Source of the DNA: Eledone cirrhosa
Lineage: Eukaryota
Direction of reading: 5' to 3'
Assembly (NCBI GenBank): GCA_964016885.1
Contig: OZ024742.1
Location: 284,022,001 to 284,086,000 of the forward strand
Length of the DNA: 64,000 bases
The number at the start of each line of letters is the position of its first letter. Positions within the stretch are counted from its first letter, which is position 1. The notes under the pieces were generated by a model. The model searched no databases. It was given only the letters and a program-made list of their open reading frames with translations, and was not told where the DNA came from. The translations under genes were made by a program, and so were the position numbers. Of the stretch, positions 3,290 to 36,581 are shown piece by piece.

Positions 3290-3412
3290 AATCTCATCAA
3301 CAGAGCTGTAACATCAGTATATAGTATTGTTGAGGAAATATCTATTCTGAGAACTGACCACTTCAAACGACCTACTGTTCTACTTATTAAAATTGGATAT
3401 CTTCAACGTGAA
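3290..3412 (+). CDS. Gene A candidate exon (NLINRAV...GYLQRE)
   Basis: ttcag acceptor, gtaagt donor, 123 bp, only phase 0 is open. Confidence 0.55.
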
Positions 3413-6400
3413 GTAAGTATAAATGTTCTATTTTCTATCCATAGCATATGGGAGGTGCTAGAAAACAGATAGATAGATAGATAGATAGATAGATAGCTCT
3501 GGTCATCCCTCCCTGCTCTCTGGTCACTTGTTACAGTAAACTGTCAGTGATTAGAGCTTACATAATGAATTTATTATTTTGTTTAGTTTGAAGATTCTTC
3601 TCATTTTATTAGTTACTTAATTGCATGTGAAACCTTGTTTAACCTCTAATCATTGATCCGAATCGACAAGATGTCAGACCTCATTCGCTTACCGAATTTT
3701 CATTGGTCTTACAATTACTGATACTATCTACCGGTCATAATTCCTGGCAGAAGGAGCAACATGAAATAAAGCGACTTGTTTAAGGACACAACGCATCACT
3801 CGGTCCAGGAATCAAACTCACAATCTCATGTTTGTGAATCTAACTCTCTAACCACTAATCAAGCATTGTCATTGTTGTTGTTTAGCCCCAGGTCAGCTCT
3901 GATTGAGCAGACCTATGATCCACAGCATTCAAACCATGACCATCCTGTGTTTTTTGATATCGTAGACTACTTTATTTGATGTACCAATTTTTAAAACAGT
4001 GGGGCATGCTTTGGGGAAAATTTGGATGTGATTTCTAGCAGGTTGAGCGACCATATTGGTTTGTCTCATATCAAGATGTGAATTCATTAATTCTATAACA
4101 CTCTTTCATCCCATTTGGTCTGACAGTGAGGCTCCACATCTTATTTGTTTTAATGGAGCAAGGGCAACTCCTTAATAGAAAAAAATCTTCAAGAATATCA
4201 AGTCTTTGTGAATATCAATAAAGAGAAAAAAAAGGAAATGAGCTGAGCATCAGGTCGAAGAAAGAAACTATGCTTCCATTGGTCTTTCCATTGTCGATAC
4301 TATCTGCTGGCCACAACACCTGCCAGAAAGATGCAAGATTTGTATTCAGAACGCTCAAAAGCATGAATGGCAAATTTGGCCTCTGTAAGTGAACCTGAAC
4401 AAATACCGAGGCATTTAATTGTCAGTTCACAGTAGCATGACAATCTTCCCATTCCGCAATAGTAGGGCCCCTTTTCTGAGATGCTACATGTTGTGACACC
4501 TTCTCCAGCAGCAATCTGGTGCATTCGGCTACCAGCCCAGGCGTCGCTGCTCGTCAGGTCAAAGAGGGTAAACTCTCGAAGTATCGGTCGCTCTCCGATA
4601 GATTTGTAGTTGAACTTGTGACAGTGGAGACTTCCAGCGTTCTTGGCCCCAGAACGATATCCATACTCATTACTATAGGGGCGCAGTTGGTTACGCGTGA
4701 GAGTGAGCCCCGTGAGTTGAAGTGGCTGTGCCAGTATCTCTCCCTCAACATCTTCACTGGAACCATGAGGTGAACCAACACTTAATCAGTGAATAACAAA
4801 CATTGGATGTTTGTTTTTGTCATAAATATATGTTGACTATGTGAAGGTGCATGGTTTTGTGGTTATGGTATTCGGCTCATGATCGTAAGATTGTGAGTTC
4901 GATTCCCTGCAGCTCGATGTGTCCTTCAGCAAGACACTTTATTTCACGTTGCTCCAGTCCACTCAGCTGGCAAAAATTAGTTGTACTTGTAATTCGAAGG
5001 GCCAGCCTTGTCACATTCTGTGTCACGCTAAATCCCCCTGAGAACTACGTTAAAGGTATGCATGTCTGTGAAATGCTCAGCCACTTGTACATTAATTTCA
5101 TAAGCAGGCTGTTCAGTTGATTGTGTCAACAGAAATACTCGTCGTCGTAACCGATGGAGTACCACTACAGTGTTGACTATCTAACTGACTGAAGCATAGT
5201 TATATATTGTATGTGTTGGACCTTCTGTTGATTCCGACGAGTTTTCCAGTTGTTCGAACAACAGATCAGCCTGCTTATGAAATTAACCTGCAAGTGGCTG
5301 AGCATTATGACAAGGGTGTCCCGTTGAATTACTGGTGCAATTCATTTTTTGACAGCTGAGTGGACTGGTGTAACATGAAATAAAGTCAGTTGTTCAAATA
5401 CACAACGCTCCGCCAGGAATCGAACTCACGACCTTGCAATTATAAGCCTGAACATGCTAACCACCAAGCCACACACCTTCACCTAATTATATTGAGTGTC
5501 TTCTTTTTAGGTTAACTTTTACTGCAACCAATTAAAGACAGTCTTCGCTTTTGATCGCTTCTCCTTTCCACTGCCATATTTACAAGTCGGAGGTGATAAG
5601 AAGTTCCTAGCTAGCAACAGGATAGGACTCCCTGTTTTGTTGTCACTGGATTTAAAAGATTACGAAAGGTCAGTAAGTCAGGTTAATATATTCTTTCATA
5701 TCACTGGACATGATAGAATTTAGAGAATACATATTGCTAGTGGCAGTACCTGGGTATTTGTGTGTCCCCTTTCCTCAGTTATACACCCATTTTTCGAAAT
5801 AAAATAATTTGAACTTAAGAAAATAACTAAACCTGCATTTTCTACTTCACAGTTCACACACACCCATGCCAAATTATGTTGCAGGTCATAATACCATGTG
5901 ACCCTCTCCAGCACTTTAGATATTTCCACAACACTGCTATGTGGCAATGTTTAGTGATGTATTTATCAATTGCAGGAAATGATTACAAAGGGGATAAAGA
6001 TACCATAACTCCTTGTGGTGTCATAGAGGCACTGTCATACGGCATGTCTAGGGCACTTTTAAACCTGGTGGAGCCCAACCCTCTCCAGGTCTGAACACAG
6101 ACGATTTTTTTCTGTGTTGGTGGAAGCTGTGGCAGAGGATGGGGAGGGTGTGGAGGAGGAGGAGGATGTGAACTTAAACATTTCTAAGCATCTCTTAGAT
6201 ACTAAACCCATCAGTCTGTCCACATCCTAGTTTGTAGATTATGATGTATTTAATATTGTGGGCTATGGTACAGACCTGCCAACAGGGCCTCCAAGAGAAA
6301 TTTTGGAAAGTGGTACAAGACCCCTTTTGGGCACGAAGCAGGCAAAGATTTTTCTCAAAATGGATGTTGCATGGTTGCTGTGGGGGCCTTCTTAGTTCTT

Positions 6401-9400
6401 AGTACTTGGGCCCCGGAACAAAGTACCGACTGGACCCCCCCCCCCTCTGCCTGCCAACCTCTAAAAACCCAAATGCAGAGTACCATGAAAAAAGTGCCCA
6501 AATGAGACAAAATGGGGAGGTTTTACATAATGACAGCTATACCCATTTTCATAAGAGAAGACATCTCTCTCACCCAACCCAAACTGGGTGGGAGTTCTCC
6601 TCGTTGGATAGGGAGAGTTCACAGGTCTGTATAGTGTATTAAATATCTTCTAGTGTGGACTGTCACTGATGCTTTTAATATCTTCTAGCTTGTCGGTTAT
6701 GACTGATGACTTAAAATTGAATACTTCCTTGTAAGGAATTTTATTGGGGAAAGGGGGTAATTTTGATCTCCTCATTTAGTGGTGTCGATCTATTTCACAG
6801 GAAGCGTCTGTTGAAAAATTACCTGGTCCTCTCTATCCGACCTGATATGTGTCCTTCTCATATAGAATGGGAATACAACGGATTATCATATTGCTCCTGG
6901 GATAAAGAAAGCAGTGATTATAACAAACTTTTCTATGGTGAAGTTTCAGATATAAAGGTAACGTTTTATTGGTTTTTGTTTGAATAAAATCATATTTCTT
7001 TCCATTGTTCCAGATTAACAAAGATAGATAGACAGACAGACAGGCAGACAAACAGATAGATAGATAGATGGATGGATGGATAACGATATTCGTAGCATTT
7101 GCAAAGGTTACTGGCTGGTTTCATGAAGAATCAGATTTTAATGGAATTTACATACTCTTTGCGTCTGATGCTGCATTTCGTCAGACCTTAATATATTTAC
7201 AAATGACTGATCAATATTTTACGAGAAATCTCGAAAGTCATACAGTATCTGTGAGCAGAGATAGAAAGAAGGAAATAAACAAACCGGGGTTGATAATTCT
7301 TGTTTTAGTTACTTGTGATAGACAGAGCAGTTGTGTGTTGGGTGGATGTTTGGATAGTGAATTGTATATTTTGAAGATGATGTATAAAGTTGAAAAATAT
7401 CGTTCCTAAAGTTGAAGATGCTTAAAAGTGGTATCAACCACACAGGATCTGCCCGATGGGGTAGGTGGAAGATCAGCGACTGGTATTTCCTAGAGACGAG
7501 CATAGCTGTATGGATTCAAGAGATGCAGGTTTTCCCCTACTGAAAAGATCTTAATTCTCCAAGAACTGAACTCCTATAATGAACATCTCCATTCCAAGAC
7601 ATATTTACATCTTATTCTCATTCTAGAAAATATCTACTTGCTTCTTAGAAGTATCATTCTCTACATTGCCATCCACCCCAGCCAGCAAACTCAATGGTAT
7701 TGAAAACTTCTTTTAAGCCTATTCAACCTTATAGGATAGGATAAAGATCCCATATCTCCTTGTGGAGTCGTAGAGGTACTGTCAAACGGCGTGTCTAGGG
7801 CACTTTTAAACCTGGCGGAGCCCAACCCACTCCAGGTCTGAACACAACTGATTTTTTCTATAGAGGAAGAATTGACCCCAGTATTGGACTGGTACTTTTT
7901 TTATCGACCTCGAAACGATGAAAGGCAAAGTTGACCCTGGCAGGATTTGAACTCAGAGCGCTCAATGAGGTGGGATGAATACCATAAAGCATTCTATCCA
8001 ATGTTTTAATGACTCACCCGATTCGCCGCCTATATAACCTTATATAGTCCTTTAAAAACTATGGCCACAAACCTTATTTTATCGCTAATCTTTGACAAAG
8101 GTAAATCTTTAAATTATTTCTAATTACAAGTGCTGCTAATCCATAATCTCTGTCTAATCACTTACCCTTGATAATCCCATACTCTTTCCTTCTCTCTCTG
8201 TCTTTCCTCCTTTCTCTCCTCATACCATCTCTCTCCTCCCTTATCTCTCATTTCTTTCTCCTTTCTCTCTGTCTTTCCTCCCTCCTCTCTCATTCTCATT
8301 CTCTTCCAACTCTGTGTCTTTCATCAGTTAATCATGATTAACTCTCTCTCAGTTAATCATATCTAAAACATACCATTCCAAACGTCTTAGTCTTTTCTAA
8401 TTCTATCTTATCTCTAATCTTCTCAAATCCCCCATTAAATTCACCAAAGTCTACCGCAGAAGAACTTGCAAAAGAAACCAATCTTTCAGCAGAATTTTCT
8501 TTCTTGGAGTACGACTCAAAAGGTAGGTCACTAGATGGTGCCTTACTCACTCTTGGATACAGCATCTTCTTACTTAGAATTTGGAAGGTGGGGGCTGCTT
8601 AAGGTCATCATTATAATCCTCATCATCATCATCATCATCATCACTACCCCTCATTAACACTATTACTCCTCACCACCACCACCACACAATCCCACAACAA
8701 ACTGGATCCAATTCATTCTGTAAAGTGATAATTTTAGACCCACAATAAAATTCTGTAAAATGGTAGTGCTGGTGCCACAATAAAATTCACCCACTACACT
8801 CTGTAAAGTGGTAGTACTGATGTTACATAAAAATGTACCCTGTACACTCTGTAAAGTAGTAGCACTGGTGTCAATAAAATGCACTACTACCCTCTTTATA
8901 GTGGGAGAGCTGGTTCCACAATAAAATGCGCCCCTCTACAATGATAAAATGCACATAATATTCTCTACAAAGTGGTTGGTGATAGGAAGGGCATCCAGCT
9001 GGAGAAACCATACCAAAAATGAAACATGAGCAAGACGTGGCTCTTCAACCCATTTGTCTTGGATTGTGCCAACCCATCTGACCCATGCCATCATGAAAGG
9101 AGGGCATTAGATGATGATGGTGATGAGAAGGAGGATGAATCCCATTTTCCTGAATCTCCTTATGAATTAAAGACCCTATATTACTAATGTAGAAAAAAAT
9201 CAATATTTCTCTTCCCTTCTACAGGAGCAGTGATTACAGAATTGGCAACAATCTATCAAAACAGTACATTTATTGCAATGGTTCCAGACATTCCTACGGC
9301 AGATGACATTTACCAAAATTCTGAGAGTAAATTCCTCAATAATCTGGCAATCACAGTTAATCGATTTGACCATGTTTATATCCGGAAACTTTTGAAAAGT

Positions 9401-11321
9401 CCAGAGTTCCTTCGATTCCAGTATATTGGTAAGTGCATTAGATTTTGTTTAGAGGTGAAGCTTATGATTTTTTGGGGAAAGCCAGTGCAATACAAGTTTG
9501 AAATACAAGAGTGTAAAGTAGAATAGAGTAAAGTAAGAAAAACTAAATAAAACAGCAGTTTAAACTTTTACCTTATATTTCAATATATTTTGAAGTTAGT
9601 ACCTCTTTTACAAAAGAAAAAAGTGGAGTGTGGTTTTGATGACAAATAGTGCTCCACTGTGAAGAAATTGGGCCAGCATATTTGGTAACATGTGCAGACT
9701 GGTATAATCATAATAACCAATCTTACGAAAATGTATCTAGTATAGTTTGAAAACAAACAAATGGGTTTGAATGGGATGGTTTGAGACAATGCTTTACAAC
9801 CATAAGTCCTTCTTGATCCCAACTCTTTTAGTCACCTTTTATAACATGCAGGGATACAGTGTACCTATTCTAAAAGCAAGGTACACACAGAAATATATAT
9901 TTTAATTTTATTTCTCTTCTGGTTGCAGGTTATGAATCTTTCTTGAAACTGGTTGAATCAAACTCCAGGCAACAACTGAACTCTATGTTAGGCATTCTGT
10001 TATCCCTCAGTATTTCCACATTCATTCTCCAGCCATCAGCAAAGGTAACATTCTAGTCACATTGATGCCACCTGTCCTCTGATACATCATCTTTCTAAAT
10101 TCATTACATTAAACCAGAGGTTCTCAAACTTTAGGGCCACCGCCCCCTCACAGCCACGTTATACCCTCAGCACCACCGCCACCCCATGCCCCATCCCAAT
10201 TTTCTGAGAGATCTGCCTACATGCAAATTGTAAATAATATATAATAAATAAAATCGTTAATTTACATACAGTGAAATTCCGTTATAACAAAATTCAAGGG
10301 TTAAAAAAAAATTAATAACGAGATCGAGCTAACACATCGAGCATGTGGCCAGGGATTGAAAAGATTTTATACTGAAAAATTTGTTATAATGGAATTCAAT
10401 ATAATGGAATTTTTGCTGTATAATAAATAATATATACCAGGGGTGTGCAACTGGCAGCAACTCAGGGTTACCAAAGAAGACTCTACAAATTTATGGTAGC
10501 CATGTGGCATGTAAGAAATTATTACTTAATCTGTAAAAGATAGACAATATTTACAACCCTTCCTTGTAGTTGTTTCACTATGCAAAGGTATGGAGACAAA
10601 TCAATCTAGTGAGAATAGCTATAATATGACTTTATATAGTACAAAGCAGCAACATATGTTTGAAAATTGATTGAGACCCAGTTTGAAATGGATTTTTGTA
10701 AATCTAGTATTATTTAGAGACAAACACACACACACATACATATCATATATATGTGTGTGTGTGTATATAGATATACTAGCTGCAGTACCCGGTAATACCC
10801 GGGAAAGGTGGGGTTATTCGCAGTTCCCAGAGTGCACCTGAAAATGTTAGCAACCCTGGGTGCCCATACTCGATTTTCAATAGTAACCTTTGCTAGGTGT
10901 GTTTATGGCAGATCAATTTTTTGTGGGGAACTATCAATAGCTGTTTAAGTCATAAATCCTTCTTCCATCCAGCTTTCTTCATTCAGAATGAATAAGCTGG
11001 GGAAGTTTGAGCTCGAAGAGTATCAAACTTATTCAACAAACTTATTGCCTTAGCGCTCAAGAACAAACACAAAACAATTGAGGAAGTCATTGCGATTATT
11101 GAAGAAATTATAACCGAGTGAACATATTCAGGTACTGTTCAAGCACCCTGTATATCATCGTTTATAAAGCCCTTCGAATGACTGAAGCAATTCAAAAGAA
11201 CCATCCTGTTTTCCCCCTATAGTAGACATAACCCAAGAAAACACACTATAATAAGTCTCTACGACTCCACAAGGAGTTATGGGATCTTTATCCTTTATTT
11301 TATATATATAAATATAAATAT

Positions 11322-11364
<43 letters not shown>

Positions 11365-14300
11365 CAAGTCGGTCTGTGTGTGTCTGTGTACAAATACTAG
11401 GCTCCTTTTAACTTTTGAAGTACTAGGCCGATTTGGCACGTGCTATTGAGGCGACCTCTCATTGGCTAGCTGACATGCACTCAGAAATTGGTAGCTAAGC
11501 CATAAACGACCTTGAACAATTCAGGCTGTCATTCATTTCCTGAGCAACATCTGCTAGTATATATATATCAAGGCAACAGATTGATTTGTGATAAAAGTCC
11601 TAACCCTTTGCATTCTGAGTTCAAACCTGCTGAAATCAACTTTGCTTTTTATCTTCTTGTGGTGAATAAAAAAAGTACCAGTTCAATCCCCCCCCTCTCT
11701 CTCTCTCTCTCTCTTTATATATATATATGTATATATGTATATATAGAGAGTGAGAGACTGAGATAGATAGATAGATAAGTGAGTGAGTGTGTGTATATGT
11801 ATGTGTATCACTAACATACATGCACAGACACATATATACACACATGGAAACTCTTCCAAACATTTGCATTACAAATCTATGTATGTTTTAAATGTTTAGA
11901 TCCTTTCCTTGGCAATGGTGACATTTTACCCAGAATTCCGGTGGAATCTCTATCCAACAGGCCAACAGGAATTAAATCAGGTATTTTCATTTAGTTTTCA
12001 ATCTTAGTGGAAGATCTCACAGTTGTTATTACATTAATCCTTTAGCATTTACATTACTCTATATTTACTATTATATTTTCATGATAAAGGTTTTACCTCA
12101 CATAATTATCTCACATAATATCAAATCTATGAGATTTTGATGTTATTTATTTTGAAATCAATACCTTAACATCAGTATGTATTCAGTTATGGCCAGTTTG
12201 AACATAAAGAGGTGAGAGAATTCTGGCCGGAAACTGCCAGTTTAAATGCTAAAGGGTTAAGGGTGCAGGCAGGGTGTGGTTAAAATGTTCATGTTGCAAC
12301 AATGATACCAGATTCAATTTCATGTACAAGCATTTTCTACCATAGCTTTGGGTTGGCCACTGCCTTGTGAGTGGAATAATAGAAATTGTGTAGATGTCAT
12401 AAATGCCAAGTCCTTTTCCTTTTATAGGTCCTTGCTGCCCTACAATTTTGTTGGCATCTACTAATATTGCTTTCCTATAGATTTCTTTCAGATCAGACAG
12501 TCATCCATTAAATGTTTTCAAGATAACCGAGAGAAAAATACTCTTCAAAGTAAGTTATCATCGTTATCACCACCAGCACCATCATCATCATCAACATTTT
12601 TATGTCTGTCTTTTTCCATATTGTAAGTATTCAGACCAAATCTCCACTTTTAGGATGCCTTTCCCACTCCAGTGTTAGAGGCCCTGAAAATTGTCATTGG
12701 CACTGCCTTCCCTCCTTTGCTAAACATTGTAAATGGTAAGATGTGATTTGAAGGAGATATAGGTATCTAGGACTACATTAGTTAATGTATCCTTTCAAGA
12801 GTTACGGCCCTTTATGTTCAGAGTTCAAATCCCGCCGAGGTTAACTATCTTTCATCCTTACCAGTAATACACTAGGATAATTGCTGGCCTTGTGCCAAAA
12901 GTAGAAACAATTATTTACCTTGAAAGAAGGTGATCTCCGACTTGCACTTGATGTCGAGTGCTACATGGCTGGAATGAAAATCAGTGCTGCAAAAACTGAG
13001 ACACTTGTCATCTCAAGGAAGCTGTGCAGTGCACTCTACATGTGAATGTAGTTCCACTGAAGCAGGTGGAGAAGTTTAAGTATCTCAGGGCCATGTTCAT
13101 GAGTGATGGAAGGCAGGAGGCTAAATTAAGTGCAAGAATTGCAGGAGTTGGTGCAGAAATACGCCAGCTTCAGCATTCAGTAATCAGAAGGGAGGTAAGC
13201 GTAAAATCCAAAGTCGATATCTTCAATTCGATATTCGTGCCAAGTATGAAAAATAGATAATAAACAGTGATGATGAAACAGTATTGGAATCCTTCATTCA
13301 GTTTATTGTATTTATTGCACAAACCTATAAAATAAACATTTATGTTTCAGAATAGCCGAACTGATGAATATATTCAAGTAATGACTGCTGTAAAAGGTCC
13401 TTTCTATACAGAAACTGGAGATCTTTACCCTTGGAATCTTGTTCGTATCGATGTGAAGAGCCTCATACGTCAGGTATGAATAACTTACAAAGTAAAATCA
13501 AGGAAACAGTTTAACCCTTCTGTGATAATCCAAAGTAAATGTTGCACCTCTTCCTACCTGTACTCATGTGAGGTGGGGGGTTGAGCCTTGGGGTACTATC
13601 CCCTTCTCTCATTCAACCTCTTGCAACCCCTCTGCTCACAGGTCCTATAAATATTTTTCATTTGTGAAGTTTTTAATCTTAGCTCTCACTAATAATTACA
13701 AATCTTTCAGAAAAATCTCATGTTTTTTTTCCTTCTTTATCTTCATCATATCATTGTTACATTTCAAAGGTGGATCACCACTTTGAATCCTTTCGTGATG
13801 GCCATTCCAGGAAGTACAGTCTTCATTGTAACTCTACCAAGACTCGCCATTATGATGTATATCTTAAACGTAAAACTGATGGTTTCATCATACCCTATGG
13901 GGATGTTCATAGTAAGTACATGCAAATTCCTTATGAATTTCAAACAGATTTTAAATGTCAGTGTATGAGCTTAAACCCATTTTCATAACTTTAAATTAAT
14001 AAGCAATAATTATCTCCCTGGATAGCATGCCATTCTTTATTTTATATATTTTTTATTTTGCAGCTGTAACTTTAATCACACTTCTTAGGTCAGGACTTTT
14101 ACCAGAAATCCGTCACCGGCTATATAAGAACTTTCTCCAGCTTCCACTTTATGAAGATATGGCACCGTGGAACATAGGTACAACAATCACTTCTCTCTCA
14201 TCACACTTGACAGCAAATTGATGTTTCATTAGTCTAACTGCTTTGATACCAAACTGCCTGAAATCACCCCTGTTTGTATGACACTAAAATGTTTATATTT

Positions 14301-15383
14301 ATCTAAAAACCTCACGTCAAAATTTTATGGAAGCACCTTTCTTAAACTATGTTCCAAATACCAACTTAATAATGAAAATGCTAGTTATTTTACCAAGCCT
14401 ATTCAAATTCTTCAATGGGTAGTGTATTTTATTAGAAATATGGTAAGAAAAGAGTTAAATATATAATTGCTTTAGATAAATGTTAGTCAGCTATAATATG
14501 GTCTATGCTGTATTGTTTGTTAGCTGGTCTCTACCATAGTCTGCTCTTTTCTGTAGTTTAGACTGTACCATAAGCTGGTCTTTGTGTTGCTACTGTGACC
14601 TGGCTGGTGTCTATTTTATTATGGTCTGTACATGATACAACAGTAGAGAATGTACAACAGTACAGGCTGTTGTGCAGTACAGACAAGCTAGACTAGGGGT
14701 GAGGACCCAGATGAGCCTAAAGTTCTTGTGCTCTTATTCTATTGTGTTATTTGTATAAATATCATCTGCATGTACAGGATATATCTATGACATATACATA
14801 AATTATATGTATATTTATGAAATACTTAAAGAGAAAATTGAAATAGAAACTACATTTTACATCTGGCTTGGGTCTATTACCAGCTTTGGTGCCTTCATTT
14901 TACATCTAATCTGACTCCATTACCATCTTTGTATGGGCCTGAGTACAGAGAACAATATAGTAGAAACAATTGTAGAAATAATAGTATAGTATAGTCAATA
15001 CTAAGATATGAATAATACCACAGTACAGATCATGCATATAACTCCCTTCTTTCCTTTTAGTATTTTCAGCTGGCCATCTTGAGTACATTGACTACGATAC
15101 ACGGAACAAAACATACACCTCCCTTGTACCTCTCCTCTATCAGGTAATACTGTTGTGTGTCATCATCATCATCATCATCATTGTTTAACATCAATTTTCC
15201 ATATTTGCATGGGTTAGACAGCTGGCTCATATGGATCTGAATTTTGGTTTGGTTTTTAAGGATGAATGTCCTTCCTATTACTAAACACATTACACTGTGG
15301 ACTAGGTGCTTTTATTTGTGTGTGTATCCTGGGTTCAATTGAGGGAAACCACAGTAAGGTACTCAATACATAGCAGAGTATAA

Positions 15384-15441
<58 letters not shown>

Positions 15442-16256
15442 TGGGTGTTCTGAAAGTACAGTAACCAGGGTAAGAACGGGATGGAAGAAGTTCAGGGAGC
15501 TAATACCACTGCTAGCTGCAAAAGGCAGACTGTATGATGCGTGCATACAAACAGCAATGTTACATGGTAGTGAGACCTGGGCACTGTGTGTAAAAGACCG
15601 GCATAGATTAGAAAGAAACGAAGCTTGTATGCTCCGATGGATGTGTAAAGTAATATACATGAACAGCAAAGCATAAACGAATTGAGAGAGACTGAGCATA
15701 AGAGGAATCAAATTCTGTGTGCAGGAGAGGAGGATGCGTTGGTATGGACATGTGATGCGTATGAAGGATGACAGCTGCATAAAAAGGTGCAGAGCACTAA
15801 AAGTTGATGGGAGCCATGGAGTGGGGGAGACCCAAGAAGACCTGGGATGAGGTGATAAAAGCGGACCTTGCCCAGTTGCACCTCTCAACAGCAATGACAC
15901 AGGACCGTGACCTCTGGCGTCACGCAGTAATGCAGAAGACCCGACTTCCCACAGGAACAAGCCGAAGCTGAAGCATATCCCCTCCCACTGCAAAGTGATC
16001 GTGGAGGTGTCACAACAAAAAAGCACCCAGCCCACACTGTAAAGTGGTCGTGTAGGTGCCACGGAAAAAAAGCGCCCAGTACTCACTGTAAATGAGGTTG
16101 GTGTTAGGAAGGGCATCCAGCTGTAGAAATCAAGCCAGAATCAGTTCCCGTATGAGCAAGACAAGGTCACCCGACCTAACATTGCCCACAACAGGACAAA
16201 CCGTCTAACCCATGGTAGAACGGAAGAACGGACATAAAACGGTGATGATGATGATG

Positions 16257-16310
<54 letters not shown>

Positions 16311-19300
16311 ATAATAATAAATGTGAAGACTAAAATCCAAAGAGGGCTCGATAAGGATAAATATATATATCAAATATATAAGAACCCTAGAGGAAATATT
16401 TATTAAAATAACAGATTAAAGTTTAAGCAAAGAATCGCTGCTTTCAGAAGATCCTGTTATTTTAATAGAGAGAGAGAGAGAGAGAGATAGAGGGATGTTT
16501 GTGTGTGTCTATGAGCATGTTTGAGTGCATAAAAGTAAACTTGTGAATACATCTAGGAGTTTGTGTTTGCAAACCAGAGAATAAGTACTCGATACTTGTA
16601 GTAGTGTTTATACATTAGTTTAACAATTGAACAAATAAACGCATACAAGCAAGATAGTGAATCATCTTACGTGATGTGATGGAATAACTCTGCTGAGTTT
16701 GGTTTCCATTGGCAGTAGTGGTAGTTTTTTGTTGGTTCTCCTTAGAATTTAATTGTTTTACTTGATTTGAACTGGGACAAAGTAAAAGCTTTTCAGTGAA
16801 GGCAGAAAGAAACCAGTTTGGATTTCTTGTTGAAGAATACCATAGGCTACATTATAATGTATAATTTCTCAGACAGAATCTTCAATTACAATTTCTAATG
16901 GAGAATGTAGAGACAGTTGACTCCAGGTTATATTATATCAGTTATGTCTTATTTCTTTGAAAATCCATATGAAACAGGATAGAGATGTTGAATTTTCCTT
17001 TACTAGGGTGAATATGTCTATAATGTATTTTGAATTAATTTATAATAAACCCAGGTAGAGTTAATGTAGCTCTGTATACTAGGATCTTGGAAAGGCACCC
17101 TCCCACAGTTGAGGTCAGCAATTGCAAGTGGGTCGTTGGGGGTGTAGGCAGTGCATATATGTGTTTTCAGTTGTGGAATGCAATAGTGGTGAGGATGTTT
17201 TCCAGACAAGAATAGCTAGCCTTAACAGTGTGTGCATTGAAAAATATTGTAGTCGGGTAGTACTACTTAATAAGAGATTAAAACAAAATCCTAGTGATAT
17301 TGGTGGTAACTTTTTAGTTATTAGTTAGATTAAACCATGTTACTTATCTGTCATGGATATAATCAGAGAAATTCTCTATTGCAGCTCCTTACTTTGTTGA
17401 TGAATTATAAAAGGACTGTCACAGATTTCGGCCAATGTAAAGGTAGCAGCAAGTAAGTAGACTTCACATGAAACAACGAGGGAGTCTCTCTATACAGTCT
17501 TCCTTGTCTGCTAAAATAGTAGCCAAATCTCCCTCATATCACATTTTACCATCTTAAAAGAATGAAAGATACATTAAATAATGCATGCCTCAATACACTA
17601 TCCAAAAAAATTGGAGACAAAGATCCTGGTTGAAACATTGGTCTGCTCAGCCAGGACCGACTTGGGACTAAACAACATCTACAACACTTTCATATGAAAC
17701 ATGCTGTGAAATATATAATGTATAAATGTATATGTAGTAGTACAAGTTGAATATATATATACCTATTTTTGTGTATCAGAGCAGCTTATTACACTGGTTT
17801 ATCTAACAAATCACATGGGTATCATCATCATCCTCATCATTTCATTTTACGTCCGCTTTTCCCTGCTTGCAAGGGTGGGACGGGAACTGATTCTGGCTTG
17901 ATTTCTACAGCTGGATGCCCTTCCTAACACCAACCTCATTTACAGTGAGTGCTGGGTGCTTTTTTGCCGTGGCACCTCCACGTCCACTTTGCAGTGGAAT
18001 GATAGGGACCCCAGTCCCTATCATCTCATTTCTACAGCTGAGGAAACTGGAGCAATGTGAAATAAAGTGTCTTGCTCAAGGAAACAACACACCACCCGGT
18101 ATGCGTATATATACCCATGTCTGTGAACCAAAGTAGTATATTACACTAGCTTATATAAATGGCATGTGTATAAATATATACCCATGTTTGTATATCAGCA
18201 ATATATTATACTTGTTTATAAAATAAATGACATATATATGAATATACATCCATCTTTGTATAAGCCAGTGTTTGCATAATAAATGACATGTGTCATCATC
18301 CAGTTTTTGATTATGCAGGACACAATTAATCCCTAAATAGAGGTGGGTCCTGCCTGACAGCGCTCCTTAACACCCCGCCCCATGTTTTTCTGTCTGCTAG
18401 TCTCACTTGGGCCAGGCCAAATGAGACCAGCAGAGCCAAGCCAAGCTTCATCCCGACAGACAAGTCCTACACTCATGCTTGTATACCAAAGTGATATAAT
18501 TCAAGGAATAAATGTCCAGTGCTCTAACAACTCAACCAAATTGATTGCCTTTAACTTTGAAAAGCATCAATATTTTTGTGGAATGAGATGGCAAGATTAT
18601 ATATAAATAGGAGCTTCCCTTAGAAGTCAATTTGGGTTTTTTTTTTTTTTCAGTGGTTGGGTAGTGGCCTGGTTGCCAGATTTGGGGAATCTAACCTTTG
18701 CAGGGTTATAAAAAGCTTTGTAACAAACAGTGGCTGGTCACTTCTACTCAACATTTTGCCTATTCCAGGACCCAGTTTGGATTTGGTTTAATATCTGATT
18801 GTATTGCAAGTAACTTCTCAGGACCCTGTTTGGTAAGTTTTATTACTTAATCCTTTCATTCATTACCTTGTAATATATATATAGAGAGATTTCAGTGACA
18901 CAGTAAAAAGCACCCAATCTACACTGTAAAGTGGTCATGGAGGTATCACGATAAAAAGTACAGTAAATGAGGTTGGTGTTAGGAAGAGCATCCAGCTGTG
19001 GAAACCAAGCCAAAATTAGGTCTGTGTGAGCAAGAAATGGTCACCTGGCCTAACATTGCCTACAACAAAACAATTCGCCCAACCCATGGCAGCGTAGAAA
19101 AATGGACATAGAACGATGATGATGATTTCAGATGTATTGTGGATGTTTAACAGTTTTTATACCAACATACTGGGCTCCAGATTCAGGCTGTTGAGTCTAG
19201 CATTACTAATTCTCTTGGCAACCACTGTACCGGGTTGTCTCTCTCAGTGATATTAATTTCTTGCCTTTCCTGTAACAGAGGCCTAGGCAAGAGAAACCCA

Positions 19301-19798
19301 TCAATAAATACACAACTGTCTGATAATCCTGTAAACACACAGACGAAATTCCACAGTAATAGGACACTGTATAGCTTTCTTTCTTTTTGTTATGTATAGA
19401 ATTGATTTCTACAGGACTTGAAATATTTCATTCATTTGATCATGAGTCATTTCTATATGAAATAGATACCTTATTTAACTGTAGTTCTTTTGTTCCTCTT
19501 CAGAAAACCATTCTAAAATTATAAATATGCCTGGTGTGTATCTGTGTATCACTGAGGAAGAATATACACCTTGTCACAGTACAGTTTCTTATAAATTACA
19601 ATGTCATTTGATGTTTCAATTTGGATGTTACTGGAAAAACGTGTCATAAAATATTTTACTTTAAATTTTCTGTCTTTTGTAATTTCAAGAACTCTCAGAA
19701 ACCAGTTCCATGTGCTGACTTCACGTGCAGATCAACCTACATAGAATGTCTAAGGGCATTAGAGAACTCTACTGAGAAGAGAAATACTCACAAACTGA
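3290..19798 (+). CDS. Gene A (spliced, ~15 coding exons; 5' start and last exon unresolved): uncharacterised protein with a protein-kinase-like core and Cys-rich C-terminus
   Basis: Exons 3290-3412, 5885-~5958 (weak), 6801-6957, 7107-7341, 9225-9428, 9929-10044, 11900-11980, 12481-12549, 13351-13473, 13770-13911, 14064-14177, 15061-15143, 17385-17452, 18769-18832 and 19690-19798 all have AG/GT boundaries with compatible phases. They join into one open frame of ~585 aa containing LPLYEDMAPWNIVFSAGHLEYIDYDT and PVPCADFTCRSTYIECL. Confidence 0.8.
4519..4752 (+). mobile_element. CRE-clade-like non-LTR element, restriction-like endonuclease C-terminal fragment (copy 2)
   Basis: AARQVKEGKLSKYRSLSDRFVVELVTVETSSVLGP...WLCQYLSLNIFTG matches the KxxKY...AVETxG...QRxSLAI pattern of the RLE domain. 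Confidence 0.7.
4843..5170 (+). mobile_element. tRNA-derived SINE (second family)
   Basis: tRNA-like head with an A-box (TGGTTTTGTGG) and a B-box (GAGTTCGATTCC), followed by a body. A reverse-oriented relative lies at ~5240-5480 and another at ~58640-58790. Confidence 0.7.
5885..5958 (+). CDS. Gene A candidate exon (VIIPCDPLQHFRYFHNTAM...)
   Basis: tgcag acceptor; supplies the needed phase 0 to phase 2 link. The donor is weak and ambiguous (5940, 5943 or 5958). Confidence 0.35.
5991..6115 (+). repeat. Unclassified dispersed repeat
   Basis: GGATAAAGAT(A/C)CCATA...CTCCTTGTGG...AAACCTGG recurs at 7738-7862 (+), ~11255-11292 (-) and ~63095-63180 (+). Confidence 0.7.
6801..6957 (+). CDS. Gene A exon (KRLLKNYLVL...GEVSDIK)
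   Basis: ttcacag acceptor, AAG|gtaacg donor, open frame. Confidence 0.65.
7107..7341 (+). CDS. Gene A exon (VTGWFHEE...DRQSSCVL)
   Basis: Lies within ORF 7068-7409. aag acceptor and G|gtggat donor; phase links to the 9225 exon. Confidence 0.6.
9225..9428 (+). CDS. Gene A exon (GAVITELAT...SPEFLRFQYI)
   Basis: Strong polypyrimidine tract plus acag acceptor, G|gtaagt donor, ORF 9230-9526. Confidence 0.85.
9929..10044 (+). CDS. Gene A exon (GYESFLKL...ILQPSAK)
   Basis: ttgcag acceptor, AAG|gtaaca donor, phase 1 to 0. Confidence 0.8.
10269..10418. mobile_element. Tc1/mariner (Tigger-like) MITE
   Basis: TA|CAGTGAAATTCCGTTATA...TATAATGGAATTTTTGCTG|TA: imperfect TIRs with TA flanks. Confidence 0.65.
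10776..10810 (-). mobile_element. Helitron 3' terminus
   Basis: Minus strand reads CCCGGGTATTACCGGG (hairpin), TACTGCAG, then CTAG|T, the canonical Helitron 3' end. Confidence 0.6.
11340..11558 (+). mobile_element. Possible short non-autonomous Helitron
   Basis: Starts TATATATATAAAAGCAAGTC...(TG)n and ends ...GCAACATCTGCTAG|T. The terminal hairpin is degenerate. Confidence 0.4.
11900..11980 (+). CDS. Gene A exon (ILSLAMVTFYP...QELNQ)
   Basis: tttag acceptor, CAG|gtattt donor, 81 bp. Confidence 0.75.
12034..12260. mobile_element. piggyBac-type MITE (copy 1)
   Basis: TTAA|TCCTTTAGCATTTA...TAAATGCTAAAGGG|TTAA. Confidence 0.75.
12481..12549 (+). CDS. Gene A exon (ISFRSDSHP...KILFK)
   Basis: cctatag acceptor, gtaagt donor, 69 bp. 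Confidence 0.7.
12920..13250 (+). mobile_element. RTE LINE RT-thumb fragment
   Basis: GMKISAAKTETLV...LKQVEKFKYL...SVKSKVDIFNSIFVPS. Confidence 0.75.
13351..13473 (+). CDS. Gene A exon (NSRTDEY...LVRIDVKSLIRQ)
   Basis: tttcag acceptor, CAG|gtatga donor, 123 bp. Confidence 0.8.
13770..13911 (+). CDS. Gene A exon (VDHHFESFRDGHSRKY...IPYGDVH)
   Basis: aag acceptor, gtaagt donor, ORF 13770-13988. Confidence 0.8.
14064..14177 (+). CDS. Gene A exon carrying the catalytic-loop-like motif (TVTLITLLR...LPLYEDMAPWNI)
   Basis: ttttgcag acceptor, G|gtacaa donor, phase 1 to 1. Confidence 0.85.
15061..15143 (+). CDS. Gene A exon carrying the metal-binding-like motif (VFSAGHLEYIDYDT...LLYQ)
   Basis: ccttttag acceptor, CAG|gtaata donor, phase 1 to 0. 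Confidence 0.85.
15440..16256 (+). mobile_element. 5'-truncated RTE LINE (3' end) in a (TA)n tract
   Basis: Degenerate [21 protein letters not shown]...MLHGSETW...RWYGHV; (GAT)n tail; similar to 43500-44500. Confidence 0.85.
17385..17452 (+). CDS. Gene A exon (LLTLLMNYKRTVTDFGQCKGSS)
   Basis: ttgcag acceptor, gtaagt donor, phase 0 to 2. Confidence 0.8.
18769..18832 (+). CDS. Gene A exon (KTQFGFGLISDCIASNFSGPCL)
   Basis: ttccag acceptor, gtaagt donor, phase 2 to 0. Confidence 0.8.
19690..19798 (+). CDS. Gene A exon (NSQKPVPCADFTCRSTYIECLRAL...)
   Basis: Acceptor at 19689 (aag) or 19698 (cag). Ends at a gtaagc donor at 19799 or reads through to TAA at 19822-19824. Confidence 0.75.
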
Positions 19799-19830
19799 GT
19801 AAGCTCTTCATTTTCATCTTTTAATTTATT

Positions 19831-26746: not shown

Positions 26747-29700
26747 CTGGAAACAGGAAAATAGAAAAAAAAAGAGGCACAATAATACTATTTATATACA
26801 TACAAGCATTTTAAGGCCATATTGTTGCTATGGCTCACACGTGTGTAGGTTTAGACAGCCACATATGAGATTGTGTCTCATAGGATATTTAAAAAATAGC
26901 AACTCCAATCCTATCGTACTCAACATGGGCTCCTTTTTGAGGCAATGTTTTCTGGCGCCAACATTTCACTTCTTATGACATGCGGAGATATGGCATATCT
27001 ATTTTAAAACAGATACATATAGAAGTTTCTGAACGGCTGCTGGAGCCCTTAAATTCTAGCATGCCATAACACCATGTAACAAAAAATTTTTTTTATCTGT
27101 TCCTGGCTTGTAATCACTTTTTTTGTGTTGCTTAGGTCCCAAATAAATAAAAAAAAGTGCTATTAAACAATTAAAAGTTTGGGTTTGTAAAAATTCTAAG
27201 CTATTCACTAGAATTATTTGTATGCTGGATTTTACGTTGTATGTAAGTTTAATTTGCTTATGTTAAATGATTTTTTTAGATATGTTTCAGGTTAAATTAA
27301 AATTATAAAATAAAAAGTAATACCTAAAGAAAATTATAAAAGTGCAATAAAGTATAAAATTGTTAAAAAGTGGATTAAAGAGATTTTTTGATTTGGATTT
27401 TCGCACCCTCTGGGCCCCTCACTACTGTTGTGAGCACTGAAAGAAGACGCTGGAAGGGTGGCTGCGAGGTGAGAAAAGGTCCCTGAAATTTTCCAACCCA
27501 CGGGTCTGGTTAGAGCCAACAGACCACGCCACAAACTGCTTTTTTTGCATGGTGGATGTTAGCAAGCGGCGGAAAGGAAAGAATGCTGCTGATGTAGATT
27601 ATCCAGATCTTCCATCATCAATTGCTCCAATTCCTCACTGCTCCAAATATCCCGTGCCAATGCCACCTGCTCCAGATGAAGTCCAAGACAAGTATTCTGA
27701 TGAAGAGGAGGAGATGGATGCTGAGGACTTGGATTACCTGCCTGAGGTACCAGAAAAGGTTCCTCACTTCCCAAACCAAAAAGAAGTCAATGACTTGGTC
27801 AGGGATATGGGTCTGAGCAAGTCCAATGCAGAGCTATTCGTCTCCAGAATGAAGTAGTGGAACTTGGTCAATGAGGAAGTGCAGGTGACAAGTCAGAGAA
27901 GTCGTCACAAACCTTTCTTAGGCTTTTACACTCTTAGGGATGGCTTCTGCCATGACATGCCAGGACTGTTTGACGTTATTGGGGTGCTGTTTGTGCCCAA
28001 GGAGTGGCGGCAATTTATATACAGCTCCACCACAAGTTTGAAGGCTGTCCTCCTCCACAATGGAAACAACTTCCCGACACTGTCCCTAACTCATTCAGTC
28101 TGCCTGAAGGAAGATTACTACAGTGTGAAAGTCCTCTTGGAAGCTCTGCAATACAACCAGTACAATTGGGAAATCATTGGAGACTTCAAGATGGTGGTTT
28201 TCCTGCTTGGACTCCAAGGAGGCTTTATTAAATTCCAATGCTTCCTCTGCCTTTGGGACAGCAGAGCCACCTCTGACCACTACAAAAGAAAGAACTGGGA
28301 GCAGCGAACAGAATTTGTAGTTGGGACCCGGAACGTCATGTGGGAGCCACTGGTTGATCCCAGGATTGTGCTCATGCCACCACTGCACATTAAGTTGGGG
28401 TTGATGAAGCAGTTTGTGAAGGCTCTCAACCAAGAATCAGCCGCTTTTAAGTACCTTCTTAAGTTCTTCCCCAAGTTATCTGAGGCCAAAATCAAAGGTG
28501 GAATTTTTGTTGGACTTCAGATAAAGAAGGTGTTGGAGTCTACCGAGTTCTCCAATAAGCTCAATACGATTGAGAGAACAGCATGGAACTGTTTCAAGGC
28601 AGTTGTTAAGGGCTTCCTGGGCAACTACAGAGCTGAAAACTACCAGCAACTGGAGCAGGATCTGATAAAGGCTTTTGGCACCATGGTATGCAGGATGTCG
28701 CTTAAACTCCATATGCTGGACGCTCACCTAGAAAAATTCAAGGACAATATGGGCACCTACTCAGAAGAACAAGGTGAACGATTCCACCAAGATGTGAAAG
28801 AGATAGAGCGGAGGTTCCATGGCCACTACAATAAAAAAAATAGGGACTATATCTGGGGGCTAGTGCGGGAATGTGACCTGGACTACAACCGCAAATCCAG
28901 GAAATCCAGTCATTTCTGACGTGTATAAGTTGCTTTATAAGTGTTATTTGTTTTTACTTGTTTGCTTTTGATAAGCTTGTGTAATAAAATAAATATATAC
29001 TCTGTTGATTTAATTATATGAACTGATAAATTTTTTTTAAATGTGTTTTTTCTTGAAAAATATGAAAATTTCGAAATATCAAACCCAAACTTCTGATTAA
29101 ATAATAGTGTTTTTTTTATAATAATGGGATATAACAAACCAGGAAATGACACTTAGAACCGGGGAACAAACAATGTTACACGGTGAATCAGGCAACTGCC
29201 AGTCACACAACTGCCACAATTAGACAACCTTAGCCGGTCCCAAGTCTGGTTGAGAAAGGAGGAGGGTTGGGGCGTGGGGTTAGCAGCCCTACCCCCATAA
29301 AAACTTTTCACCGCTACAGAAACGACAAGAAAAAACCATTTTGATACCCAGCGGCGGAAAAGAGAAGACATCATCCCTGGATGCATCTATGATGGGGCCA
29401 AGTCAAAGCCGAAAGGAGGCCCGACTGCGGATAAGTCCTATCTTCAACGGCAAATCAAACACAAGAGTAGGCACCTGATGGAGAAGGTGAGAGAATATCT
29501 CCTTGACATCATGGCCATCAGCGAGACGAGGTGGACAGGACGGAGATGACTCGACAACGGAGGCATGACTATTCTCTACTCCGTTGGGATGGAGGCCAGT
29601 GAGTGAACGAATTATTACTGCCAGATTGAACACAAGGTTAGCCAAGGTGACCATATTGCAAGTCTACACCCCGACTGAAGCTGCCTTAGATGGAAGACCA

Positions 29701-35588: not shown

Positions 35589-35634
<46 letters not shown>

Positions 35635-36201: not shown

Positions 36202-36235
<34 letters not shown>

Positions 36236-36528: not shown

Positions 36529-36581
<53 letters not shown>

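What the first reader, a model, noticed from the sequence alone, without database searches (positions are those of the whole stretch)
3290..19798. Uncharacterised spliced gene with a WbdD-like methyltransferase plus kinase layout: candidate glycan-modifying enzyme
Seen: the joined exons give YEDMAPWNIVFSAGHLEYIDYD, a D-x-x-P-W-N catalytic loop followed ~11 residues later by an IDYD metal-binding motif, then a Cys-rich tail (at least six Cys). Established: this spacing is typical of atypical PKL-fold kinases (APH, RIO, Kdo kinase). From memory, the bacterial O-antigen terminator WbdD joins an N-terminal SAM methyltransferase to a kinase with a DxxPWN loop. Inference: the alternating beta/alpha region upstream (IILVLVTCD...LGAVITELATIYQNSTFIAM...NNLAITV) could be a Rossmann MTase-like fold, though it lacks a clear GxGxG. 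The cysteines suggest a lumenal or secreted protein. It may be an undescribed animal glycan kinase or methylphosphate-capping enzyme; methylated glycans are known in molluscs.
Basis: partly seen in the sequence, partly recalled or inferred. Interest (0 to 1): 0.75.

Follow-up and report, generated by a model that had tools for sequence, protein, structure and literature searches.

The report
Orphan methyltransferase-fold, kinase-motif gene in octopod
The window holds the last 15 exons of an intact single-copy octopod gene from a large, unnamed eukaryotic protein family. Its repeated unit has a methyltransferase fold followed by a small domain that is predicted to be a WbdD-like kinase core, likely working on glycans in the secretory pathway.

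Summary
The motif is real. Exons 14064-14177 and 15061-15143 join through GT-AG to give YEDMAPWNIVFSAGHLEYIDYD, followed by six conserved cysteines.

- The 'IILVLVTCD' frame (7068-7409) is not an exon.
- Five exons between 9428 and 14064 were skipped.
- At least six more exons lie up to 53 kb before the window.

The window encodes the C-terminal 569 residues. All 15 exons have AG/GT borders and the frame is open. This part is 81% identical to an uncharacterised Octopus bimaculoides protein of about 1,100 aa.

The family is large and has no Pfam domain and no paper in my searches. It has 736 cluster representatives at E<=1e-3, from molluscs, an annelid, a brachiopod, echinoderms, a hemichordate, a choanoflagellate, Thecamonas and chrysophytes.

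WbdD is the top Foldseek match to one module, but a rigid-body aligner overlaid only the methyltransferase part. The kinase fold is therefore inferred, not shown.

The SAM-binding motif is intact in protist members and decayed in the octopod. The WbdD-like layout is partly supported. A glycan-kinase role is the best guess, at about 0.5.

The parts
3290..3412 (+). First exon inside the window (NLINRAVTSV...LQRE). It encodes the last strands of the methyltransferase-like fold of module 1.
   Evidence: tblastn with P0001-P0003; AG/GT borders and open frame; strands 421-452 of the Argonauta model.
5511..5668 (+). Exon (VNFYCNQLKTV...LDLKDYE). Module 1 counterpart of the HHHF/DGH region, with those residues lost.
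   Evidence: module-to-module hhalign.
6801..6957 (+). Exon (KRLLKNYLVLSIRPDMCPSHIEW...SDIK). Decayed copy of the LPLYEDMAPWNI loop in module 1, plus a linker.
   Evidence: Internal tblastn match to the catalytic-loop exon; hhalign probability 99.9%, E 1e-35.
7068..7409 (+). It is not part of the gene.
   Evidence: No match to any of the three octopod homologues used as tblastn queries. Neighbouring exons join in frame without it. No Pfam hit.
8450..8522 (+). Exon (STAEELAKETNLSAEFSFLEYDSK). Start of module 2: helix plus strand beta-1 with the decayed SAM motif I (E-Y-D-S-K-G).
   Evidence: motif I columns.
9225..9428 (+). Exon (AVITELATIYQNSTFIAMVPD...RFQYI). Helix A, strands beta-2 and beta-3 and the conserved SPEFLRFQ stretch of the module 2 methyltransferase-like fold.
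   Evidence: methyltransferase fold of the homologues' models.
9929..10044 (+). Middle of the methyltransferase-like fold.
11900..11980 (+).
12481..12549 (+). It is also missing from the O. vulgaris gene model P0002.
13351..13473 (+). Strands beta-6 and beta-7 of the methyltransferase-like fold, with the nearly invariant R and D of LVRID.
   Evidence: Methyltransferase alignments end at the matching Lingula residues, about 255-260.
13770..13911 (+). It carries the invariant HH, DGH, R and Y residues and forms the small N-terminal part of the kinase-like domain.
14064..14177 (+). Exon (VTLITLLRSGLLPEIRHRLYKNFLQLPLYEDMAPWNI). Helix followed by the D-x-x-P-W-N loop.
   Evidence: Single copy in the genome.
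15061..15143 (+). Exon (FSAGHLEYIDYDTRNKTYTSLVPLLYQ). Two short strands, then the invariant Y-I-D-Y-D.
17385..17452 (+). Exon (LLTLLMNYKRTVTDFGQCKGSS). Long helix and the first conserved Cys.
18769..18832 (+). Exon (TQFGFGLISDCIASNFSGPCL). Second and third conserved Cys.
19690..19824 (+). Last exon (NSQKPVPCADFTCRSTYIECLRALENS...). Conserved Cys four to six, the terminal helix and the stop codon at 19822-19824. A GT after 19797 could be an alternative donor.

Best explanation
The window carries the C-terminal 15 exons of an intact, single-copy octopod gene whose protein is built of two tandem copies of a module with a class I methyltransferase fold. The roughly 200 residues after the fold in the last copy are predicted to form a small WbdD-like kinase core, which would likely phosphorylate glycans or another secretory-pathway substrate.

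Shown:
- The exon structure and the orthologues.
- A family of at least 736 cluster representatives across eukaryotes with no Pfam domain.
- The internal duplication of the module.
- The methyltransferase fold.
- The invariant residues HH, DGH, D-x-x-x-W-N and D-x-D, all kept in the window.
- Loss of the SAM-binding glycine loop in spiralian animals but not in protists.

Inferred:
- D447, N452 and D464 of the window's 569-residue product act as catalytic base and Mg-ATP ligands, as D351, N356 and D369 do in WbdD.
- The octopod methyltransferase-like domains no longer bind SAM and serve as scaffold or substrate-binding parts.
- The protein works in the lumen of the secretory pathway.
- The acceptor is a sugar.
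For: Gene and family:
- 15 exons, all AG/GT, give an open 569-aa frame that is 81%, 77% and 65% identical to O. bimaculoides, O. vulgaris and Argonauta proteins.
- At least six further exons lie upstream. The gene is single copy.
- A profile search of 1.84 billion representatives gave 736 hits at E<=1e-3 and 269 at E<=1e-30.
- Named members are molluscs, Owenia, Lingula, sea urchins, a brittle star, Glandiceps, Salpingoeca, Thecamonas and chrysophytes. All are 'uncharacterized'.

Structure:
- Module 1 against module 2 by hhalign: probability 99.9%, E 1e-35.
- Models are confident: pLDDT 79 for Argonauta (over 90 across most of residues 240-960) and 83.5 for Lingula.
- Foldseek places WbdD at ranks 1-3 (E 2.7e-7 to 4.6e-7) with 405-434 columns, against 218-297 columns for listed single-domain methyltransferase chains.

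Residues:
- Invariant in 77 of 77: H776, H777, H785, Y789, D852, M853, A854, W856, N857, Y867, D869, D871.
- The window keeps 50 of the 51 positions that are at least 90% conserved.
- The order helix, D-x-x-x-x-N loop, two short strands, D-x-D, long helix is that of a kinase catalytic core; this comparison rests on my own knowledge of the fold.
- The WbdD residues come from passages of PMC3482155.

Other:
- The ten best named language-model neighbours of Lingula residues 225-462 all belong to the kinase clan (APH, RIO1, WaaY, YrbL, Kdo/WaaP), at scores 0.90-0.92.
- N-terminal hydrophobic segment in 32 of 63 full-length members. A possible signal peptide, MSYLLLCFMFLTI, lies in this genome's first exon.
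Against: - WbdD's Foldseek E-value is barely better than that of plain methyltransferases (2.7e-7 against 5.1e-7).
- A family profile found no kinase and no WbdD in the PDB at E<=10.
- None of 33 C-terminal fragments hit a kinase Pfam model at E<=10.
- hhalign against an E. coli WaaP profile gave probability 0.3%. That profile was shallow, built from sequences about 75-95% identical to the query.
- No Lys or Glu is at least 90% conserved between the methyltransferase fold and the loop, apart from E851 beside the Asp. The conserved residues there are His, Arg and Asp.
- Only about 77 residues separate the end of the methyltransferase fold from the catalytic Asp, against about 140 in WbdD.
- The language-model scores share few features (119-137 of 256). 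By the tool's own figures, a third of shuffled proteins also give ten hits of one clan.
- Cephalopod gene models show no N-terminal anchor.
Confidence: 0.5

Rival explanations
1. One reading: a bifunctional WbdD-type enzyme that phosphorylates a glycan and then methylates the phosphate (or a sugar hydroxyl), with both halves active in the octopod.
For: - WbdD is the top Foldseek match, with both domains in the same order.
- The methyltransferase fold is clear.
- Protist members keep E/D-x-G-x-G-x-G and the acidic beta-2 residue. One of them gives a weak CbiT methyltransferase match, E 8.4e-6 but below the curated cut-off.
- Passages of PMC7614267 say that glycan methyltransferases of C. elegans remain unidentified.
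Against: - In the window motif I reads F-S-F-L-E-Y-D-S-K-G and the beta-2 end reads A-M-V-P-D. All nine molluscs with this region aligned, plus the annelid and the brachiopod, lack both glycines and the aligned beta-2 acid.
- Module 1 is decayed as well.
- No methyltransferase Pfam or NCBIfam model passes its cut-off in any member tested.
Confidence: 0.1
2. The C-terminal 200 residues are not a kinase. They form a family-specific metal-binding catalytic domain (HH, DGH, D, N, D-x-D as ligands) with some other chemistry, for example a hydrolase, a phosphodiester transferase or a glycosyltransferase-like D-x-D site. The resemblance to the kinase loop would be convergent.
For: - No sequence-level link to any kinase family.
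- No conserved Lys/Glu pair, and three invariant His close together.
- The stretch before the loop is short.
- Rigid-body structural comparison never reached this domain.
Against: - The spacing D-4-N-11-D, with the Trp before the Asn, equals that reported for WbdD.
- The secondary-structure order around it fits the kinase core.
- The Foldseek alignment to WbdD runs through the domain.
- The ten best named language-model neighbours are all small kinases.
Confidence: 0.27
3. The protein is a non-catalytic scaffold or lectin-like binding protein (a pseudoenzyme) in animals, with activity retained only in protists.
For: Module 1 and both methyltransferase motifs have decayed in the octopod. About 235 N-terminal residues are predicted disordered.
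Against: Twelve invariant polar or aromatic residues of the last module are kept across animals and protists. The window retains 50 of the 51 most conserved positions. Such conservation is typical of an active site.
Confidence: 0.08

Closest known systems
WbdD of Escherichia coli O9a (bifunctional O-antigen chain terminator; PDB 4azs, 4azt, 4ax8, 4azw, 4uw0)
   Same: - An N-terminal class I methyltransferase fold is directly followed by a domain with D-x-x-x-W-N and a downstream Mg-binding Asp.
- It is the best Foldseek match in the PDB for one module (ranks 1-3, 405-434 columns).
- WbdD's kinase acts on a sugar (passages of PMC3482155).
   Different: - No detectable sequence similarity.
- Rigid-body overlay covers the methyltransferase part only.
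- About 77 rather than about 140 residues lie before the catalytic Asp.
- No conserved Lys/Glu. Extra invariant HH and DGH motifs.
- A Cys-rich tail instead of a coiled coil.
- The module is duplicated in tandem.
- The family is eukaryotic and probably lumenal rather than bacterial and cytoplasmic.
- The SAM motif has decayed in the octopod.
Small bacterial and viral protein-kinase-like sugar or antibiotic kinases (Kdo/WaaP PF06293, WaaY PF06176, APH PF01636, RIO1 PF01163)
   Same: Similar size of the catalytic part (150-270 aa). The D...N...D triad is recalled for these families. They are the nearest named language-model neighbours.
   Different: No Pfam hit in 33 fragments. hhalign against WaaP gave probability 0.3%. 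These kinases stand alone and are not fused behind a methyltransferase fold.
Phosphoethanolamine N-methyltransferases with two tandem methyltransferase domains (for example 5wp5, 4ine, 4krg)
   Same: They are the top Foldseek matches to the whole Argonauta model (E 2.3e-8, about 550-620 columns), because they also carry two class I methyltransferase folds in a row.
   Different: They have no D-x-x-P-W-N / D-x-D domain and no Cys-rich tail. They are cytosolic and bind SAM through intact motifs.
Secretory-pathway kinases of animals (FAM20, Four-jointed, POMK, FAM69/DIPK); comparison recalled, not tested
   Same: Atypical kinase-like domains with disulfides that act in the Golgi lumen, some of them on glycans.
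   Different: None appeared among the matches shown by any structure search. None has a methyltransferase fold in front.

Membership tests
WbdD-type bifunctional methyltransferase-kinase | Class I SAM-methyltransferase fold at the N-terminus of the unit | tested here: met
WbdD-type bifunctional methyltransferase-kinase | Kinase domain directly after the methyltransferase domain, in the same order | tested here: inconclusive
   Foldseek aligns 405-434 columns of WbdD chains of 435-450 residues at ranks 1-3. However, the rmsd is about 19-21 A, the E-value is close to that of plain methyltransferases, and VIA-align 2 covers only the methyltransferase part.
WbdD-type bifunctional methyltransferase-kinase | Catalytic loop Asp, Trp-Asn and downstream Mg-binding Asp (D351, W355, N356, D369 in WbdD) | tested here: met
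   D852, W856, N857 and D869 are invariant in 77 of 77 sequences and present in the window. WbdD residue numbers come from passages of PMC3482155.
WbdD-type bifunctional methyltransferase-kinase | Functional SAM-binding motif I (glycine-rich loop) and an acidic residue at the end of beta-2 | tested here: not met
   The window reads E-Y-D-S-K-G and A-M-V-P-D. Family columns: G 26 of 66 and N 23 of 66 at position 572, G 34 of 62 at 574, E 32 of 66 at 594. Protists keep the motif and spiralian animals do not.
WbdD-type bifunctional methyltransferase-kinase | Detectable sequence homology to WbdD | tested here: not met
   The family profile against all PDB sequences at E<=10 gave 10 hits. The best was coclaurine N-methyltransferase at E 0.11. 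WbdD was not among them.
Protein kinase-like superfamily | Two-lobed kinase fold of the domain taken alone | tested here: inconclusive
   Both fold jobs went on larger models, and the methyltransferase domain filled every list. Only the secondary-structure order and the long Foldseek alignment to WbdD speak for it.
Protein kinase-like superfamily | Conserved beta-3 Lys and helix-C Glu pair | tested here: not met
   No Lys or Glu is at least 90% conserved between the end of the methyltransferase fold and the loop, except E851 next to the Asp. The conserved residues are R764, D766, H776, H777, D783, H785, R787, R807 and D810.
Protein kinase-like superfamily | Match to a kinase-clan profile | tested here: not met
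   0 of 33 C-terminal fragments at E<=10. 0 kinase-clan matches in 44 longer members. hhalign against WaaP gave probability 0.3%. The Kdo model searched over the whole genome matched two other places, not this gene.
Class I SAM-dependent methyltransferases | Seven-stranded fold with the beta-6/beta-7 hairpin | tested here: met
Class I SAM-dependent methyltransferases | Match over the curated cut-off of a methyltransferase family model | tested here: not met
   Only matches below cut-off: GidB 0.0029, NpmA 0.0048, Methyltransf_32 0.0056 and Methyltransf_4 0.0086, Methyltransf_4 3.4e-4, and CbiT 8.4e-6 at 26 bits against a cut-off of 78. All are in non-animal or unnamed members.

The most novel reading that the evidence does not exclude
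An ancient eukaryotic secretory-pathway enzyme family is the counterpart of the bacterial O-antigen terminator WbdD. Tandem methyltransferase-kinase modules put phosphate caps, and in protists methyl-phosphate caps, on glycans. Spiralian animals, including octopods, have kept only the kinase chemistry and turned the methyltransferase folds into scaffolds. That would name a first gene family for the unexplained phosphorylated and methylated glycans of marine invertebrates and protists.
Probability: 0.2. Interest if true: 0.8.

Novelty: new variant of a known kind. Interest (0 to 1): 0.6.

Why it matters
- The family is large and old. It occurs in animals, a choanoflagellate, an apusomonad and stramenopiles, yet has no Pfam model, no name and no paper in my three literature searches.
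- If the last domain is a kinase, it adds a new branch of lumenal atypical kinases. It would be the first eukaryotic protein with the WbdD order of domains.
- Enzymes that methylate or phosphorylate invertebrate glycans are largely unidentified. Passages of PMC7614267 say this for C. elegans.
- Within one family the SAM motif is intact in protists and decayed in spiralians. This gives a natural experiment on how a bifunctional enzyme loses one activity.
- For genome annotation, the public octopod models are flawed. One skips an exon, one has a wrong C-terminus, and none has the start that this genome suggests.

Tried and rejected
- Pfam on the single exon peptides gave nothing.
- The family profile against PDB sequences gave only a weak methyltransferase motif-I match, E 0.11.
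- Pfam at E<=10 on 33 C-terminal fragments gave scattered chance hits and no kinase family.
- hhalign of the kinase-like slice against a profile of 15 close WaaP sequences gave probability 0.3%. The profile was shallow, so this is a weak negative.
- VIA-align 2 second look and wide search on the 520-residue Lingula model: all 50 rows shown in each were methyltransferases over model residues about 1-260. No kinase was listed and the C-terminal domain stayed untested.
- The same happened for the whole Argonauta model, where module 1 filled the list.
- Kdo family model over the own genome: two matches on other contigs, none at this gene.
- Sequencing runs: no RNA holder listed. The three rows found are not on record as RNA (kind unknown), all from one study. 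No reads were laid, so splicing is not confirmed by reads.
- Earlier findings of this scan: nothing by place or by sequence.
- Literature searches for 'EDMAPWN', 'LOC106878138' and 'WbdD-like' each returned 0 papers.
- Considered and dropped: a cation-dependent O-methyltransferase metal site, because D/N/D lies about 80 residues after beta-7, outside the Rossmann core.
- Considered and dropped: a nucleotidyltransferase G-S...D-x-D motif, because the spacing does not fit. Both judgements rest on recalled motifs.
- The count of 10 of 66 sequences with both motif-I glycines depends on column register. I do not rely on it.

Full report
**The observation.**
Exon 14064-14177 ends ...LPLYEDMAPWNI plus one base. 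Exon 15061-15143 follows a TTTTAG acceptor. The join reads YEDMAPWNIVFSAGHLEYIDYD. Six cysteines follow, in three further exons. The motif and the Cys-rich tail are therefore real.

**The gene model.**
- A search with the 67-residue exon 9227-9427 found three octopod proteins of 962-1096 aa: O. bimaculoides XP_014782745.1, an O. vulgaris hypothetical protein, and Argonauta hians LOC115214405.
- Laying them on the window by tblastn and fixing borders at canonical sites gives 15 exons between 3290 and 19824. All have AG/GT borders.
- The open frame is 569 aa. It is 81%, 77% and 65% identical to the three octopods, 40% to Haliotis and 36% to a cuttlefish.
Five real exons between 9428 and 14064 were skipped.
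- At least six more exons lie 10.7 to 53 kb before the window. The gene therefore spans about 73 kb with at least 21 exons.
- It is single copy in this genome.
- The first upstream frame contains MSYLLLCFMFLTIKEAS, a possible signal peptide. The public cephalopod models have no N-terminal hydrophobic segment.

**The family.**
- Residues 400-1096 of the O. vulgaris protein found 20 proteins. They include Haliotis, Gigantopelta, a chiton, a cuttlefish and Aplysia.
- A profile of 13 members, scored against 1.84 billion cluster representatives, found 736 proteins at E<=1e-3, 515 at E<=1e-10 and 269 at E<=1e-30.
- Names recovered for 20 of them: Haliotis, Patella, Owenia, Lingula, Lytechinus, Diadema, Amphiura, Glandiceps, Salpingoeca infusionum, Thecamonas trahens and two chrysophytes. 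Every one is 'uncharacterized' or unnamed.
- No Pfam model passes its cut-off in any of 77 proteins scanned. Only weak methyltransferase hits below cut-off appear, in non-animal or unnamed members.
- Three literature searches returned nothing.
- Of 63 full-length members (starting with Met, at least 1,200 aa), 32 have a hydrophobic segment in the first 250 residues, mostly within the first 30.

**Architecture.**
- An alignment of 77 members has twelve invariant columns (Argonauta numbering): H776, H777, H785, Y789, D852, M853, A854, W856, N857, Y867, D869, D871. Six cysteines are at least 90% conserved.
- The window keeps 50 of the 51 positions that are at least 90% conserved.
- A profile-profile comparison shows that residues about 253-533 and 550-867 are homologous (probability 99.9%, E 1e-35). 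The protein is a tandem duplication. The first copy has lost the HHHF and D-x-x-P-W-N residues: RPDMCPSHIEW in the window aligns with YEDMAPWNIVF.

**Structure.**
- The AlphaFold model of the whole Argonauta protein has pLDDT 79 and pTM 0.75. Residues 1-235 are mostly disordered and the rest is mostly above 90.
- The model of a 520-residue Lingula protein covering one module has pLDDT 83.5.
- These alignments end near Lingula residue 257. The strands encoded by window exon 13351-13473 are therefore beta-6 and beta-7 of the methyltransferase fold.
- What remains is about 200 residues: a one-turn helix in the HHHF/DGH stretch, a hairpin and a short strand, two helices, the Y-E-D-M-A-P-W-N loop, two short strands, I-D-Y-D, a 21-residue helix, Cys-rich loops and a final long helix.

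**Is that remainder a kinase core?**

For:
- The order helix, D-x-x-x-x-N, strand, strand, D-x-D, long helix is the order of the kinase catalytic core (from my own knowledge of the fold).
- The WbdD paper reports D351 as essential, W355 stacking on Y230, and N356 and D369 binding the two Mg ions. This is the same D-3-W-N and N-to-D spacing as here (passages of PMC3482155).
- In Foldseek the three best PDB matches to the Lingula module are WbdD chains (E 2.7e-7 to 4.6e-7). Their alignments span 405-434 columns, against 218-297 for listed single-domain methyltransferase chains.
- WbdD is also at ranks 9-18 for the whole Argonauta model.
- The ten best named language-model neighbours of Lingula residues 225-462 are all small kinases: APH, RIO1, WaaY, YrbL and Kdo/WaaP. 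A first, wider query gave APH/RIO1 only at score 0.86.

Against:
- VIA-align 2 puts WbdD on the methyltransferase part only.
- WbdD's Foldseek E-value is hardly better than that of plain methyltransferases.
- No sequence method sees a kinase.
- There is no conserved Lys/Glu pair.
- The part before the loop is about 60 residues shorter than in WbdD, whose methyltransferase is residues 1-210 and kinase 211-459.
- The language-model evidence is a lead only, by the tool's own figures.

I put the kinase-like reading at roughly 0.6, and the full best explanation at 0.5.

**The methyltransferase half.**
- The family consensus at motif I is F-S-F-(V/L)-E-(Y/H)-(G/N)-S-G-x-G, with E at the end of beta-2 in 32 of 66 sequences.
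- Chrysophyte, Salpingoeca and Thecamonas members keep G-x-G-x-G and the acid.
- All nine molluscs with this region aligned, plus the annelid and the brachiopod, have lost both. Echinoderms are intermediate.
- The window reads F-S-F-L-E-Y-D-S-K-G ... A-M-V-P-D.
An active methyltransferase in the octopod is unlikely. A methyl-phosphate capping role is more plausible for protist members than for this gene.

**Most likely mechanism.**
The protein would enter the secretory pathway. The evidence is hydrophobic N-termini in half of the full-length members, a possible signal peptide in this genome's first exon, and six conserved cysteines. In the last module, the invariant Asp, Asn and Asp would bind Mg-ATP and deprotonate an acceptor hydroxyl. 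The His/Arg cluster just upstream would replace the usual Lys/Glu in holding phosphates or would bind the substrate. The two methyltransferase-like folds would act as scaffold or glycan-binding parts. The acceptor is guessed to be a sugar, by analogy with WbdD and with the LPS sugar kinases among the language-model neighbours. All of this paragraph is inference.

**Comparison and novelty.**
The closest known system is WbdD. The two share the domain order and the loop motif. They differ in sequence, in the size of the part before the loop, in the tail, in the tandem duplication, in the cellular compartment and in the state of the SAM motif. I do not file the gene as a WbdD family member, because sequence homology and an intact SAM motif were tested and not met. 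It is a new variant of a known kind: an unnamed, pan-eukaryotic family with a WbdD-like module.

**Limits.**
- Splicing rests on homology and canonical splice sites. No RNA run was available.
- The models are of Argonauta and Lingula relatives (65% and about 40% identical), not of the window's own product, because tools do not accept joined exons.
- Supplements of the WbdD paper were not read.

Noticed in passing
window 12905-13260 (+), 15374-15971 (+), 15256-16140 (-), 17891-18136 (+): The introns of the gene hold fragments that look like non-LTR retrotransposon reverse-transcriptase tails. They also hold a repeated element ([19 protein letters not shown]...) that recurs at 56739-57389. Judged by eye from the ORF lists.
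   Followed up: no
window 40714-43567 (+); similar frames at 44904-45806 (-), 46744-48276 (+), 57317-58475 (-): A non-LTR retrotransposon. Frame 41190-41945 matches Exo_endo_phos_2 (E 1.2e-6). Frame 42737-43567 matches RVT_1 (E 3.4e-23) plus a PHD finger. The other copies were judged by eye.
   Followed up: partly
window 62807-63139 (-) and 54790-55875 (-): A minus-strand exon encodes a BRCT domain (PTCB-BRCT, E 2.1e-13). A 361-aa Ser-rich open frame with no Pfam hit lies 7 kb away on the same strand. It may belong to the same neighbouring gene.
   Followed up: partly
window 27441-28919 (+): Two adjacent open frames of 138 and 353 aa, separated by one stop codon, with no Pfam hit. By eye this may be a transposase-derived gene or a decayed element.
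   Followed up: partly
window 30100-30900 and 35500-36700: Long AT-rich microsatellite-like arrays give long spurious open frames rich in Y, I and T. GC falls to 0.234 in 34001-36000.
   Followed up: no
public homologues P0001 and P0002: The O. vulgaris model lacks the exon equivalent to window 12481-12549. The O. bimaculoides model ends in a different C-terminus without the last exon, and starts with a stretch that looks transposase-derived (by eye). Both look like annotation errors.
   Followed up: partly
longer homologues P0004, P0007, P0008, P0010, P0012, P0017: Gastropod, cuttlefish and protist members carry a further N-terminal region with an 'LEIGGC'-type motif and a conserved LLP-x-E stretch. 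This may be a third module. Octopods have a long basic, disordered stretch there instead.
   Followed up: no
G000:C14:331066-331281 (-) and G000:C5:126971105-126971425 (-): The Kdo/WaaP Pfam model matches two other places of the genome just over its cut-off (E 1e-4 and 2.6e-4). They were not examined and are probably exons of ordinary protein kinases.
   Followed up: no
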